The notes beneath the pieces are model-generated. The model worked only from the letters and a program-made list of their open reading frames with translations. It had not been told where the DNA came from and ran no database searches. From Pristiophorus japonicus (Eukaryota): a DNA stretch of 64,000 bases. Within the stretch, counting starts at the first letter, position 1. Each line of letters begins with the position of its first letter. Positions 33,683 through 64,000 of this stretch are shown one piece after another. Made by a program: the position numbers and the translations under genes. Where the stretch lies: positions 48,856,001 through 48,920,000 of the forward strand of contig NC_091994.1 in NCBI RefSeq assembly GCF_044704955.1, given 5' to 3'.

Positions 33683-34540
33683 AATCGCCGCCGCTGGTGG
33701 AAATGTGTCATCACAGCATGACACGTTTACAGCCTTAGTTTTGATTCTAAATGTACATACGGTCATTTATCACTTGAGAACATGCGCAAGGATGTGAAAT
33801 TTTTCTAATACTGTGAACAGATATTACGTGTTTGAAGCTTTATATTGGTGGGGTGGGGGGGGACTCACTGTGGGTCAAAGAGCGAATGTGCTGGACATCA
33901 CTTAGGAGGTCAATGGAGCAGCCCCAGATAACTCAAAAATCATTCGTTAAATTCTGCCAATTTTGGTATCAGAACCCCATGGGTGGCAGGAGGATCCATA
34001 GACTGAACAGAACAAAGAATTCCCCAGTTCTGAGGAAGGATGCACCTCCTCATTCACTCCCAAATGCTTTGCAAATAATAAAGTGATTTTCTAAAGGCCA
34101 GCTTCTGCTGTTAACTGCTAAAACACGGCATCCATTTTGGAGTTGCACACTAACCACCACGCGGGCTTGAAAGAGCTGGGTCTTATTCCAGTGGCAAGGG
34201 TTAACCAAGATGACTGGAGACAAGCTCTGCTGTACGGACCTAGGGCGCGCACATATCGCAGTGTGGGCTGACCCATGCTGACCCGGGCGCTCGCCTCTTC
34301 TGGGCCCCAAACATGCACCTCTCCTGGGCCGCTGATCATGTCCCTCTACAATCTCTCACCGCTCCTGCACCCCTCCCCCCAATTCGCCGCTCCTGCACCC
34401 TCCACCTTCCCGCTCCTGAAACGCGCACCTCGCCGCCGCTGTGACGACCTCGCCACTCCTCCGCACCCCCACCTAGCCGCTCCTGCGCCCCGACCTCACC
34501 GCTTCTTTGCCCCCTCACCTCGTCGCTCCTTTGCCCCAAA

Positions 34541-35065
34541 GTGGGGTGGGGGCGAAGGAGCGGTGAGGTGGGGGTGGGCTGAAGGAGTGGTGAGGTGGTG
34601 GGACGCAGGAGTGGCAAGGTGGGGGGGCGAAGGAGCAGCAAGGTGGGGGGTGCCAAGGAGTGGTGAGGTGCTGGGGTGAAGGAGTGGTGAGGTGGGGGGT
34701 GAAGGAGCAGCGAGGTGGGGGGTGAAGGAGCGGCATGGTGGGGGGTGAAGGAGCGGCGATGTGGGGGGTGAAGGAGCAGTGAGGTAGGGTGTGAAGGAGC
34801 AGCGAGGTGGGGAGTGAAGGAGCAACAAGTTGGGGGGGCGAAGGAGCGGCGAGGTGGGGGGGGTGAAGGAGCGGTGAGGTGAGTGGGGTGGGGCGACGGA
34901 GCGGCGAGGTGGGGGGGTGAAGGAGCGGTGAGGTGAGTGGGGTGGGGCGACGGAGCGGCGAGGTGGAGGGGTGAAGGAGCGGTGAAGTGGGTGGGGTGGG
35001 GTGACGGAGCAGCGAGGTGGGGGGGTGAAGGAGCGGTGAGGTGGGGGGATGGTGAAGGAGCGGCG
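34541..35065 (+). repeat. G-rich VNTR (GAAGGAGCGGYGAGGTGGGGGGT); copies at 47894-48776 and 61693-62221
   Basis: Directly visible; lengths are about 525, 883 and 529 bp in the three units. Confidence 0.93.
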
Positions 35066-59900: not shown

Positions 59901-61293
59901 TCGTTGGCCATTCCTTGGGTGAGTGTCACATCATTGACCTTTGGCACTGCCCATTTAACATTGCTGGCCTATCGCCGAGTGGAAAATCGGCATCCAAAAA
60001 ATGGGGGATGAGCCAGCTATCGGTAAAGCTGGGACATCGACCATCGCTGGAACATCGCCTATTTTTGGGTGATAGACAGCAAAGTCTAGCCCTATGATTC
60101 TATGCAGATTATGACATTATGGAGCAGTACTGCCCTCTGCTGTTCGATGCTTCACCATGCAGATTATGATATTATGGAGCAGTACTGCCCTCTGCTGGTA
60201 GACTCTTCACCATGCAGATTATGACATTACAGAGAAGTACTGCCCTCTGCTGGTAGACTCTCTGCATCGTGTAATTAATGCACGGCCATCAGGGGAAGCA
60301 ATGACTCTATAATCACGATTTAAAAAAAAATCTTGCATTTATAGGGCACAGCATCCTATTCTCAGCACATGTCAAGCTGCTTCACATTAAATGAATTACA
60401 TTTGAAGTGTATTACTTAGGGAAATGCAGCAGCCAACTTACCTTCAGTTAAGTCTCACGAACTGCAATTAAATGAACGACCGGTTAAGCTGTTTTTGGTG
60501 CATTGGTTGAGGGAAGAATATTGTCCAGGATACCAGGAGAATGCCCCAGCTCTTTTTCAAAAAGTGTGATGGGATCTTTTACGACCACCTGAGGAAGTGC
60601 TCTTTAAAGTCAGTACGAAAAGGGAAGCAGGGCTTTGTGTATGTAACATCCAATTGATATTAAGCACTTCCTCAGTACAGCACTGAAGCTGGTCTCCAGT
60701 CATTTTGGTTAATCCTTGTCACTGAACCAAGACCTAGCCCGTATGGTGGCACAGGCATCTTCGACCCTTCAAGATTTAGTTCAGGAACTGGAATATTAGG
60801 TCCTTCATTGAAACACCTGTGAACTTTTTGACATGGAAGCAAGTCATCCTCGATTCGAGGAACTGCCTATGATAATGATGATTGGAATCTAAGTCCTGGA
60901 GTGGGCCTTGAACCCAAAATGTTCCAACCCAGAGTGGAAGTTGTTCTATAAACATACCAGCTGCATGGCATAGCATCTGCCACAAGGTAACAACACTTTT
61001 CTATAAATTAATAATCTGCATGATGCCGAATTCCACCAGCAGAGGGCAGTACTGCTCTATAATGAAATAATCTGCATGATGCAGAATCTACCAGCAGATG
61101 GCAGTACTGCATTATAATGTAATACTCTGCATGATGCAGAGTCTCAGTCAGTCATAGGCGGTCCCTCGAAATGAAGATGACCTGCTTCCATGCCAAAAAA
61201 GGATGAGTTCATAGGTGTTTCAATGAAGGACCCGAACTACATCCTCAAGGGTGGAAGATGCCTGTGCATGGATTTTTTTAATGTGTGGTGGCC

Positions 61294-64000
61294 GTTGCAC
61301 GCCAGCCACCACACGGGCTTGACAGAGCTGGGTCTTGGTCCAGTGGCAAGGATTAACCAAGGCGACTGGAGACAAGCTCTGCTGTACGGACCTAGGGCGC
61401 GCACATATCGCAGTGTGGGCTGACCCATGCTGCCCCGGGCGCTCGTCTCTTCTGGGCCCCAAACATGCACCTCTCCTGGGCCGCTGATCATGTCCCTCTA
61501 CAATCTCTCGCCGCTCCTGAACCCCTCCCCCCACTTCGCCGCACCTGCACCCTCCACCTTCCCGCTCCTGAAACCCGCACCTCACCGTCCCTGCGATGAA
61601 CTCGCCACTCCTCCGCACCCCCACCTAGCCGCTCCTGCGCCCCGACCTCACCGCTTCTTTGCCCCCTCACCTCGTCACTCCTACGCCCCAAAGGGGGGGG
61701 GCAAAGGAGCGGTGAGGTGCGGGGTTAATGGATTGGTGACGTGGGGGGGGGGCTGAAGGAGTGGTGAGGTGGTGGTGCGCAGGAGTGGCAAGGTGGGGGG
61801 GGCGAAGGAGCAGCAAGGTGGGGGGGAGCAAGGAGTGGTGAGGTGCTGGGGTGAAGGAGTGGTGAGGTGGGGGGTGAAGGAGCAGCGAGGTGGGGGGTGA
61901 AGGAGCGGCAAGGTGGGGGGTGAAGGAGCAGCGAGGTAGGGGGTGAAGGAGCAGCGAGGTGGGGGGTGAAGGAGCAACAAGTTGGGGGGGGGGCGAAGGA
62001 GCGGCGAGGTGGGGGGGGTGAAGGAGCGGTGAGGTGAGTCGGGTGGGGCGACGGAGCGGCGAGGTGGGGGGGTGAAGGAGCGGTGAGGTGAGTGGGGTGG
62101 GGCGACGGAGCGGCGAGGTGGAGGGGTGAAGGAGCGGTGAAGTGGGTGGGGTGGGGTGACGGAGCAGCGAGGTGGGGGGGGTGAAGGAGCGGTGAGGTGG
62201 GGGGATGGTGAAGGAGCGGCGTCCCTTTAAACCGGCACTGGGTGTGTCGGCCTAGAAAGTGTGCTCATGTCCCTGGAGTTGAGCTTGAATCCAGCACCTC
62301 GTGACTCAGTATAGTAGAATCAAAGCAATCAGGACAAACTGACAATCGATCACAGATGAGAAAGATGCAAAAGAGCAAGAGGGGGAAAAGAGAGGTTGGA
62401 AACTAGAGTTGGGAGAAATATTATATATCAAGCATGTACCCCATGCAAAGTTAAGAAGACACTTCGAGGAGACTCTCCCCAGATATGGATGAAGTATTCA
62501 GCCCTTCAATGTATGAGCGCATTAGAGAGTGTTGGAAAATGCCTCTTAAATCCAGCAACGTGATACGAGAGTTCATATTGAGGGCCTTCGAAGAACTGGG
62601 CAAGAGTGGTTAGGGGATAAAGTAACATATAGTCAGAGATATACTGAAATGAGACTGATATAAGAGTTTCACCGCAAGCAATTACTGTTCTGTTTTAAAT
62701 GGAACAGGTCATATTTTGTGTTTTATACCTATTTATTTGAAGATCAATCTACAAGATACTCACCGTTTGGCATTGTAGTGAATAAAGCTTGTGACATTGC
62801 ACCAAACCAATGGCATGCTTTCTTTTAATACAAACACTTGTTAAAAATTAAAGCATTGCATCGCAGAGTGGCTATTAGACTGTGCGACCTGGTCCCAGTC
62901 TTGTATAAGGATGAATGTTGGCTAGTTCAGTAGCTTCACAGATTCAGGGAGAGGTAGAGAGTGCGATACATTAAAACAATTGAGATACACAGAGACAGTG
63001 ATATTTTCTTTATATTATATATATAAATGCATATATAAAGATGGAGAAAGAGGAAGAAATGTATGTATCGATATCGATAGATGGATAGAGACAGATAGAT
63101 CGACAGACAGACAGAGTTCATTATTAAGGAAGCAGTAGCGAGACATTTGGAAAGGCATGATTGAATCAAGCAGAGTCAACATGCTTTTATGAAAGGGAAA
63201 TCATGTTTGACACATTTGCTGGAGTTCTTTGATGATGAAACAAGCAGGGTGGATAAGGGGGAACGAGTGGATGGGGTGTATTTGGATTTCCAGAAGGTAT
63301 TCGATAAGGTGCCNNNNNNNNNNNNNNNNNNNNNNNNNNNNNNNNNNNNNNNNNNNNNNNNNNNNNNNNNNNNNNNNNNNNNNNNNNNNNNNNNNNNNNN
63401 NNNNNNNNNNNNNNNNNNNNNNNNNNNNNNNNNNNNNNNNNNNNNNNNNNNNNNNNNNNNNNNNNNNNNNNNNNNNNNNNNNNNNNNNNNNNNNNNNNNN
63501 NNNNNNNNNNNNNNNNNNNNNAGCAGCAGCGAGACATTTGGAAAAGCATGATTCAATCAAGCAGTGTTAGCAAAGGGAAATCATGTTCGACAAATTTTCT
63601 GGAGATCTTTGAGAATGTAATGAGCAGGGATGAATAAGGGGGAACCAGTGGATGTGGTGTATTTGGACAGGTAACCAGGTATAAAAGGGAGCTCACCATA
63701 TTGTATCCTCACTCAGGAGCTGTAATAAGTGGACTAAGGTCACCACAGTTCAAGTACAATACCTTACCCCATGGAGTCAGTACTACAGTGCTTATAGATA
63801 TAATATTTACAATCTATATTCATGACTTGGATGAAAGGACTGAGTGTAATGTAGCCAAGTTTGCTGATGAAACAAAGATGGGTGGGAAAGCAAATTGTGA
63901 GGAGGATGCAAAGAATCTGCAAAGGGATATAGACAGGCTCAGTGATTGGGCAAAAATTTGGCAGATGGAGTATAACGTGGGAAAATATGAGGTTATCCAG
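61294..64000 (+). repeat. Macrosatellite unit 3 (partial, runs off the window)
   Basis: Same VNTR, spacer, N run and CR1 pieces as units 1 and 2. Confidence 0.97.

What the first reader, a model, noticed from the sequence alone, without database searches (positions are those of the whole stretch)
34142..64000. 13.4-13.8 kb tandem array whose only intact gene is tRNA-Leu(UAA)
Seen: at least 2.2 near-identical head-to-tail units. Everything else recognisable in the unit is dead (four tRNA pseudogenes, Harbinger, RTE, CR1), while one tRNA-Leu(UAA) is fully intact and differs between units only in the variable loop. Established: tandem tRNA gene arrays with copy-number variation exist in vertebrates. 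Inference: this is a tDNA macrosatellite amplifying the decoder of the UUA codon, packaged with insulator-like motifs and a G-rich VNTR; alternatively it is neutral amplification with the tRNA as passenger.
Basis: partly seen in the sequence, partly recalled or inferred. Interest (0 to 1): 0.75.

Follow-up and report, generated by a model that had tools for sequence, protein, structure and literature searches.

The report
Repeat-made triplication carrying a passenger tRNA
A 13.5-kb block of shark DNA is present three times in a row, likely because two copies of a common jumping-gene relic recombined, and the leucine tRNA gene inside is likely a passenger (one of its three copies is damaged and the genome holds well over a hundred look-alikes elsewhere), so the array is ordinary apart from an untested cluster of CTCF-like motifs.

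Summary
The array is real but has exactly three units (13,353, 13,799, 13,523 bp), ending 10.8 kb past the window; units differ by 1.2-1.4% and short-read depth fits three copies. Both internal junctions are the same chimera of the two flanking copies of an abundant short repeat, switching in 10 identical bases: a repeat-mediated duplication, then a triplication. tRNA-Leu(UAA) was constrained before the duplication (0-3.6% versus 18-20% flank divergence from paralogues) but has since changed at background rate (2 changes, 1.6 expected; weak test), and copy 3 has a T-stem mismatch. The genome holds 160 exact Leu(UAA) cores, mostly in 2.4-kb modules on another chromosome, C23, the likely source of this segment. 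A dosage-amplifying macrosatellite is not supported; the passenger reading is. The insulator-like motifs are real as motifs: a divergent cluster of CTCF-like 55-mers, confined to 1.07 Mb of this chromosome, 58 kb behind an IgNAR antibody gene. Binding is untested, and the searched flanks of other IgNAR clusters lack it. The scan had no note on this DNA; it noted other CTCF minisatellites and an old tandem duplication elsewhere in this genome.

The parts
34142..47494 (.). Unit 1 (13,353 bp)
   Evidence: self-alignment
47495..61293 (.). Unit 2 (13,799 bp)
61294..64000 (.). Start of unit 3 (13,523 bp in all; runs on to window-equivalent 74816 = L012:816, where the array ends)
34142..34537 (-). 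Left flanking copy (A) of an abundant short interspersed repeat with an RTE-like tail; its tail end is missing here; C-rich internal repeats from 34359
   Evidence: 79-87% to 8 of 8 dispersed copies; family 43-mer exact at 80 places
47350..47890 (-). Junction 1/2: chimeric repeat copy, right-copy letters up to 47564, left-copy letters from 47575
47565..47574 (.). Crossover interval, 10 bases identical in both flanking copies; same interval at junction 2/3 (61364-61373)
   Evidence: diagnostic-site scan
34548..35065 (+). G-rich VNTR (23/24/54-bp periods), inverted partner of the C-rich repeats beside it; 882 bp at 47895-48776, 530 bp at 61692-62221
   Evidence: its 43-mer occurs only in this array, 6 of 6 matches
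35950..37620 (.). Broken CR1-like LINE pieces (label from recalled motif)
38650..38718 (-). tRNA-Asp pseudogene, 5' end cut off by the RTE-like insertion
38719..39570 (-). Truncated RTE-like LINE inserted in the tRNA-Asp gene, 11-bp target-site duplication
   Evidence: other copies at 17924 and 33001
40009..40091 (-). tRNA-Leu(UAA), unit 1: all stems pair; one private change in the variable loop
53827..53909 (-). tRNA-Leu(UAA), unit 2: all stems pair; identical to a paralogue on C23 (L026). Unit 3 copy (L011:3278-3360) has a T-stem mismatch
39719..42109 (-). Decayed piece of the C23-type tRNA module (Leu, SINE-like head at 40374, Ser-like pseudogene 40807, Asp pseudogene 41099, Leu pseudogene 41962), 72-81% to C23 modules
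42156..46294 (.). Broken Harbinger-type DNA transposon with terminal inverted repeats
46303..46462 (-). 55-bp minisatellite, 3 monomers with CTCF-like cores, reverse orientation (60102-60261 in unit 2, 2 cores left)
47200..47345 (+). 55-bp minisatellite, 2 monomers with CTCF-like cores, forward orientation (61010-61144 in unit 2); with the reverse block a divergent cluster
31012..32110 (+). Outside the array: broken rhodopsin-class receptor gene whose close relatives lie on C23; marks the same C23-derived segment

Best explanation
This is a three-copy tandem duplication, likely made by recombination between two same-facing copies of an abundant short repeat, and its tRNA-Leu(UAA) gene is likely a passenger. 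Inferred order: (1) a segment with a receptor gene and about one and a half tRNA modules was copied from chromosome C23 to C18; (2) the receptor gene and four tRNA genes decayed, transposons inserted, and one tRNA-Leu(UAA) stayed under constraint; (3) a crossover or template switch between repeat copies A and B, 13.5 kb apart, in 10 identical bases, duplicated the block; (4) unequal crossing-over between the now long identical units added a third copy soon after; (5) the three units have drifted apart without homogenisation, the tRNA included. Shown: copy number, ends, chimeric junctions, divergence, damage in copy 3, paralogue counts. Inferred: direction of transfer, order, repair pathway, neutrality.
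For: Junctions: before 47565, 10 of 11 diagnostic sites carry the right-copy letter; after 47574, 8 of the next 9 sites before the first gap in the alignment, and nearly all later ones, carry the left-copy letter; both junctions switch at the same place. The repeat is abundant: one 43-mer is exact at 80 places on contigs C1-C24. This matches the published definition of homology-driven transposon-mediated rearrangements, which include a triplication (PMC9675761, passages). Divergence is star-like: 71, 56 and 66 private sites in 9,876 columns, pairwise 1.23-1.39%; with a C23 outgroup 21 of 25 resolvable sites are private new changes. tRNA since duplication: 2 changes in 83 bases, 1.6 expected, one breaks a T-stem pair. 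Before: 0-3.6% versus 17.6-20.0% in flanks against 11 of 11 C23 copies. Dosage: 3 of 160 exact 30-base cores; 50 of 82 sampled paralogous modules pass a crude intactness test. In zebrafish embryos tRNA levels do not follow gene copy number (PMC11574265, passages). C23 origin: tRNA module 72-81% to C23; of 149 other scored hits of the receptor piece none is on C18 and nearly all are on C23. Unit GC 46-47% equals the flank's 46%.
Against: The test of neutrality is weak: even zero changes had P 0.20, and two of three copies remain intact. If only the form with a Watson-Crick pair at the base of the anticodon stem counts, the array holds 3 of 17 exact 46-base matches, which is not negligible. One pre-switch and one post-switch site disagree with a clean chimera (both fit later point changes). 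The ancestral single-copy allele was not seen. Ten identical bases in repeats about 84% alike cannot tell crossover from annealing or template switching. Each unit carries a non-random CTCF-like cluster that was also multiplied 0.8 Mb away, which leaves room for selection on the block. The C23 comparisons used copies found with a tRNA-containing query and are not independent.
Confidence: 0.8

Rival explanations
1. The triplication was kept because it multiplies a chromatin boundary: a divergent cluster of CTCF sites plus a tRNA gene, downstream of an IgNAR antibody gene, would stop loop extrusion and confine the antibody gene's enhancer and mutator activity, as the mouse Igh 3' CTCF elements do.
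For: 10 core matches in the window against 0.06 expected, 9 in the array; 16 over the whole array, 12 with a TGCAT word 13-14 bases upstream; the first 13 core letters equal those of a published CTCF test site, which has TGCAG 12 bases upstream (10.1101/2023.12.05.569896, passages). Reverse-then-forward layout is the boundary layout (PMC4840295, passages). The repeat is confined to C18:48.68-49.74 Mb (20 of 20 and 31 of 31 matches) and was multiplied separately at 49.70-49.74 Mb without a tRNA. An IgNAR gene (V, J, two C exons, membrane exon) ends 46 kb before the array.
Against: No binding data. Core conservation among monomers is inconclusive (10.5% versus 18.5% variability, permutation P 0.024, but only rank 8 of 55 windows; 10 of 21 monomer types meet the core). 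No core and no monomer in 200 kb searched behind other IgNAR genes on C2090, C23 and C27. The 49.48 and 49.7 Mb copies have no antibody gene in the stretches fetched. Unit 2 has lost one core. One cluster could be a boundary without the triplication mattering. Earlier notes report CTCF-motif minisatellites as common in this genome (unchecked).
Confidence: 0.1
2. One reading: a tDNA macrosatellite selected to raise the dose of the UUA decoder.
For: The tRNA is the only intact gene in the unit; it was constrained before duplication; the array holds 3 of 17 exact matches to the A31-type 5' half.
Against: Three units only; one copy damaged; background change rate; 160 cores genome-wide; unit not GC-rich; no homogenisation; first run of four or more T only 72 bases downstream, whereas 7 of 11 C23 copies have one within 21 bases.
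Confidence: 0.06
3. Assembly artefact: alleles or read errors assembled in tandem.
For: The only read data are from one sample, possibly the assembly's source, and no single-copy flank was laid.
Against: Three sequence types 1.2-1.4% apart cannot be two alleles; contigs from short reads carry unit-specific letter sets of units 2 and 3 and of the left edge; in run X1 depth divided by predicted copy multiplicity is 9.4-11.9 for 7 of 8 listed contigs (1 matched no unit exactly), across multiplicities 1.3 to 2.9. Chimeric junctions at one shared position are not expected from misassembly.
Confidence: 0.03

Closest known systems
Homology-driven transposable-element-mediated rearrangements (Alu/Alu and L1/L1 duplications and triplications; PMC9675761, passages)
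   Same: Breakpoints in two same-facing repeat copies about 80-85% alike, a chimeric element at the junction, short microhomology (10 bp here; median 17, 93% at least 5), higher-order amplification.
   Different: Shark RTE-tailed repeat instead of Alu or L1; 13.5 kb against a median near 1.3 kb (range to 25 kb); old enough for 1.3% divergence; no single-copy allele seen.
Human 1q23.3 / mouse 1qH3 tDNA VNTR (PMC4041453: abstract, sections 11, 17, 18)
   Same: Multi-kilobase tandem units about 98% alike, holding tRNA genes and CTCF motifs.
   Different: There 9-43 units, 64% GC, five tRNA genes per unit, measured CTCF binding and cross-species conservation; here 3 units, 46-47% GC, one tRNA (damaged in one unit), motifs only.
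Mouse Igh 3' CTCF-binding elements, the super-anchor (PMC7826415, passages)
   Same: A run of CTCF-type motifs downstream of an immunoglobulin heavy-chain constant region.
   Different: Binding and function untested; divergent pairs repeated by duplication; absent behind the other IgNAR genes searched; also present where no antibody gene was found.
Elasmobranch and zebrafish tRNA-rich chromosomes (10.1101/2025.06.08.657570, passages and section 6; PMC11574265, passages)
   Same: C23 of this genome carries very many tRNA genes in clusters, as stingray chromosome 28 and zebrafish chromosome 4 do.
   Different: The array studied here is a stray piece on another chromosome; the passages read do not describe a Leu(UAA) module.

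Membership tests
Homology-driven TE-mediated duplication (PMC9675761) | Both ends lie in copies of one repeat family in direct orientation | tested here: met
Homology-driven TE-mediated duplication (PMC9675761) | Junction is a chimeric element joined at homologous positions with microhomology | tested here: met
   10 identical bases, same switch at both junctions
Homology-driven TE-mediated duplication (PMC9675761) | Extra copies supported by read depth | tested here: met
   one sample; run X1 tight (7 of 8 contigs), X3 and X4 noisier
Homology-driven TE-mediated duplication (PMC9675761) | Unrearranged single-copy allele known | not testable with these tools
   no relatives held for this genome
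tDNA VNTR / macrosatellite (PMC4041453) | Many units (9-43) | tested here: not met
   3 units in this assembly
tDNA VNTR / macrosatellite (PMC4041453) | Copy number varies between individuals | not testable with these tools
   one sample only
tDNA VNTR / macrosatellite (PMC4041453) | GC-rich CpG-island unit | tested here: not met
   GC 46-47% versus 46% flank; CpG observed/expected 0.50 versus 0.48
tDNA VNTR / macrosatellite (PMC4041453) | Several intact tRNA genes in every unit | tested here: not met
   one per unit, damaged in unit 3
tDNA VNTR / macrosatellite (PMC4041453) | Units about 98% alike | tested here: met
   98.6-98.8%
tDNA VNTR / macrosatellite (PMC4041453) | CTCF motif in each unit | tested here: met
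   5, 4 and 7 cores with a recalled consensus
tDNA VNTR / macrosatellite (PMC4041453) | CTCF bound; array conserved across species | not testable with these tools
   no ChIP data, no related genome
Igh 3' CTCF super-anchor (PMC7826415) | Run of CTCF motifs downstream of an Ig heavy-chain constant region | tested here: met
   16 cores, 58-87 kb behind the IgNAR membrane exon
Igh 3' CTCF super-anchor (PMC7826415) | Motif kept by selection | tested here: inconclusive
Igh 3' CTCF super-anchor (PMC7826415) | Regular part of the locus type (present behind the sister clusters) | tested here: not met
   0 cores and 0 monomers in 200 kb behind other IgNAR genes; 31 of 31 genome matches on C18
Igh 3' CTCF super-anchor (PMC7826415) | Binds CTCF and insulates a 3' enhancer | not testable with these tools
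   needs ChIP, Hi-C, deletion
Functional Pol III tRNA gene | All stems pair, anticodon and box positions intact | tested here: met
   units 1 and 2 only; unit 3 has one unpaired T-stem position
Functional Pol III tRNA gene | Transcribed and processed | not testable with these tools
   no RNA data for this locus were obtained

The most novel reading that the evidence does not exclude
Each unit carries a divergent cluster of CTCF sites beside a Pol III gene, and the triplication built a 16-site boundary behind a shark IgNAR antibody gene; the same locus-specific 55-bp element was multiplied separately 0.8 Mb away. Repeat-mediated duplication would then have built, twice, a shark counterpart of the mouse Igh 3' super-anchor, with boundary strength set by copy number.
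Probability: 0.1. Interest if true: 0.62.

Novelty: new member of a known kind. Interest (0 to 1): 0.27.

Why it matters
As it stands the locus is an ordinary but unusually well-resolved case: the junctions give the mechanism to 10 bases, and the tRNA shows constraint before duplication and apparent release after it. It warns against reading 'the only intact gene in a repeat' as the reason for the repeat. It would matter more if the CTCF-like cluster proved to be a bound boundary behind IgNAR, because how sharks insulate their separate antibody clusters is open (one search for IgNAR, CTCF, cluster and shark together returned one review with single mentions). The real Leu(UAA) amplification in this genome is on C23 and deserves its own look.

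Tried and rejected
Further units: none upstream (40 kb) or downstream (89 kb). Rfam microRNA matches at the VNTR are below their gathering scores and reflect the inverted C-rich/G-rich repeats. Low-threshold ARAGORN gave 174 calls in the window, mostly noise. No RNA holder was listed for the tRNA region; read support for the tRNA gene itself was not obtained. The G-rich VNTR as a folded-back expansion of the flanking repeat's own internal motif: only weak support, score above all 30 shuffles in 4 of 8 dispersed copies, by small margins. A first test of CTCF-core conservation was discarded because the ungapped alignment was out of register; it was redone with gaps. The 1-kb CTCF block as a foldback transposon was considered; its confinement to 1.07 Mb and a shared internal repeat insertion at 49.476 Mb favour local duplication. 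Host genes between the two motif clusters: the 150 longest of 894 low-repeat open frames gave only transposon and retroviral domains plus the IgNAR exon; short exons would be missed and 49.62-49.69 Mb was not fetched. Pfam did not recognise the two pieces of the broken receptor gene; an intact C23 relative gave 7tm_1. Earlier-findings look-ups near the locus, by sequence and by words gave nothing. For the depth model I used 21 of the 32 listed contigs: run X2 repeats X1, and three gapped or partial contigs were left out; 3 of the 21 matched no unit exactly.
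Full report
Setting. The window is G000:C18:48,856,001-48,920,000 of a 5.9-Gb genome. It is a shark: an exon 28 kb upstream matches solved shark V-NAR domains at E 1.5e-37. Window-equivalent coordinates below are C18 position minus 48,856,000.

The observation. Self-alignment shows units starting at 34142, 47495 and 61294. Neighbouring stretches show the third unit ending at 74816 and nothing similar beyond, apart from scattered transposon pieces, in 40 kb upstream and 89 kb downstream. 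Unit lengths are 13,353, 13,799 and 13,523 bp. A genome search with the tRNA and its flanks gave three matches at 98-100%, all in the array, and 37 at 83-85% among the 40 scored. Over 9,876 aligned columns the units have 71, 56 and 66 private differences, 1.23-1.39% pairwise; with a C23 module as outgroup, 21 of 25 resolvable sites are private new changes. So the copies arose close together in time and have not been homogenised. At the epaulette shark's 7e-10 per base per generation (PMC10587355, passages; another species, wide interval) this means millions of generations; I take only the order of magnitude.

Real or artefact. Four public DNA runs of one sample, possibly the assembly's source, hold the region. 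Their contigs carry the letter sets of unit 2, unit 3 and the left edge. I predicted for each listed contig how many units share its 31-mers. In run X1, depth divided by that number is 9.4-11.9 for 7 of 8 contigs, over multiplicities from 1.3 to 2.9; X3 gave 8.3-21.1 (5 of 6 matched) and X4 7.3-13.6 (6 of 7 matched). This fits three copies at equal dose. No single-copy flank was laid, so the control is internal only.

How it was made. The left edge, both internal junctions and the right edge all lie in copies of one short interspersed repeat. One 43-mer of the family is exact at 80 places on contigs C1-C24, eight dispersed copies align at 76-87%, and its end resembles the tail of the RTE-like LINE over about 40 bases (the RTE label is recalled). 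At sites where left copy A and right copy B differ, both junctions read B at 10 of 11 sites up to 47564 and A from 47575 on (8 of the next 9 sites, and nearly all later ones); ten identical bases lie between. This is the signature used to define homology-driven transposon-mediated rearrangements, where 91% of deletions and duplications have same-facing elements and the median microhomology is 17 bp (PMC9675761, passages). One A/B event explains both junctions; the third copy then follows from unequal exchange between long units (inference). The paper notes that annealing and template switching give the same scar, so the pathway is open.

The tRNA. Unit 3's copy has a T-stem mismatch and scores 58 bits. 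Two changed sites in 83 bases compare with 1.6 expected from the unit-wide rate (P of 2 or more 0.48; P of none 0.20), so there is no sign of constraint since duplication, on a weak test. Against 11 of 11 paralogues on C23 the tRNA differs by 0-3.6% and its flanks by 17.6-20.0%; those copies were found with a tRNA-containing query and are related to each other, but unit 2's gene being identical to one of them, while four neighbouring tRNA genes decayed, points to constraint on the single ancestral copy. The first run of four or more T lies 72 bases downstream in all three units, against within 21 bases in 7 of 11 C23 copies. Expression was not testable.

Dosage. A 30-base D-arm and anticodon core is exact at 160 places; 93 of the first 100 listed are on C23, many in runs with 2.4-kb spacing between 11.7 and at least 55 Mb. 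In 29 fetched stretches, chosen around such hits and hence biased towards intact genes, an upstream-flank search found 82 modules; 50 pass a crude test of stems, anticodon and box positions, 38 with G and 12 with A at position 31. The array's three genes are thus about 2% of cores. The best case for dosage is the A31 form alone, 3 of 17 exact 46-base matches. Sharks are known to hold many clustered tRNA loci (10.1101/2025.06.08.657570, passages and section 6), and in zebrafish embryos copy number does not predict tRNA level (PMC11574265, passages).

Origin of the cargo. Window 39719-42109 is about one and a half C23-type modules at 72-81% identity. Two kilobases left of the array lies a broken receptor gene; none of its 149 other scored hits is on C18 and nearly all are on C23, where an intact relative is a rhodopsin-class receptor (the name GPR139/142-like comes from an earlier unchecked note). 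No other Leu tRNA gene was found in the C18 stretches scanned. A transfer of at least 11 kb from C23 is the simplest reading (inference).

The insulator-like motifs. A recalled CTCF consensus hits 10 times in the window against 0.06 expected, 9 times in the array, and 16 times over the whole array. The hits sit in a 55-bp minisatellite: three reverse monomers, about 0.75 kb of spacer, then two or three forward monomers. The first 13 core letters equal those of a published CTCF test site with TGCAG 12 bases upstream (10.1101/2023.12.05.569896, passages); 12 of 16 cores here have TGCAT 13 or 14 bases upstream. Divergent sites mark domain boundaries (PMC4840295, passages). The repeat is local: 20 of 20 exact 19-mers and 31 of 31 DNA matches lie at C18:48.68-49.74 Mb, with a separately multiplied, tRNA-free cluster at 49.70-49.74 Mb and an inverted copy at 49.476 Mb. 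An IgNAR gene with V, J, two constant exons and a membrane exon ends 46 kb before the array, which recalls the ten CTCF elements behind mouse Igh (PMC7826415, passages). Against a function: core conservation among monomers is inconclusive, 200 kb behind other IgNAR genes hold no core and no monomer, unit 2 has lost a core, and nothing shows binding.

Comparison. The human 1q23.3 tDNA VNTR has 9-43 units, 64% GC, five tRNA genes per unit and measured CTCF binding (PMC4041453, abstract and sections 11, 17, 18). This array shares unit identity and motifs but fails on copy number, GC content (46-47% versus 46% in the flank) and gene content, so it is not filed there. It meets the tested features of a transposon-mediated tandem duplication. 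No supplements were read; tRNA tables in the supplement of the shark preprint could bear on whether the C23-type module is known.

Verdict. Observation partly confirmed; main interpretation not supported, alternative supported. Best explanation 0.80; boundary selection 0.10; tRNA dosage 0.06; artefact 0.03. New member of a known kind; interest 0.27.

Noticed in passing
G000:C23, 11.7 to at least 55 Mb (e.g. L025, L027-L045): A 2.4-kb module (Asp, Ser-like, SINE-like head, Leu(UAA)) occurs in short tandem runs across tens of megabases. Most Leu copies carry G at position 31, a wobble pair at the base of the anticodon stem. Mean distance to the majority sequence: Leu 2.5%, Ser-like 3.4%, Asp 4.4%, upstream flank 6.0% (sample biased towards intact Leu). 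This, not the C18 array, is the genome's Leu(UAA) amplification; some copies have switched anticodon. An oocyte-type tRNA set is one untested idea.
   Followed up: partly
G000:C18:49,703,850-49,742,280 (L069-L073): Second, tRNA-free cluster of the 55-bp CTCF-like minisatellite, multiplied by local duplications with alternating orientation, 13 core matches.
   Followed up: partly
G000:C18:48,828,299-48,844,200 (L022, L023): IgNAR gene with V and J only about 400 bp apart and only two constant exons found, plus a membrane exon; a second V exon on the other strand at 48,682,929 had no constant exon in the stretches fetched.
   Followed up: partly
window 31012-32110: Broken rhodopsin-class receptor gene from a very large C23 family (150 scored of 2,454 candidates), with a 32-bp tandem repeat expanded inside it at 31603-31792.
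   Followed up: partly
window 38707-39581: An RTE-like LINE sits inside the tRNA-Asp gene's D arm with an 11-bp target-site duplication.
   Followed up: partly
window 34359-35065 and its two copies: C-rich repeats directly followed by their G-rich inverted partner form a long hairpin; the G-rich side varies from 518 to 882 bp between units and is unique to this locus. It lies within about 150-900 bases of the crossover.
   Followed up: partly
window 26422-26435: A single CTCF-like core outside the minisatellite, in a CpG-richer stretch.
   Followed up: no
L134 (C18:49.535-49.540 Mb) and L078-L079 (C18:48.689-48.691 Mb): Endogenous-retrovirus-like open frames (protease, reverse transcriptase, integrase, envelope domains by Pfam).
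   Followed up: no
L012:665-1230: The right flanking repeat copy inserted into a 55-bp monomer, with a short target-site duplication, leaving further monomers beyond the array's end.
   Followed up: partly
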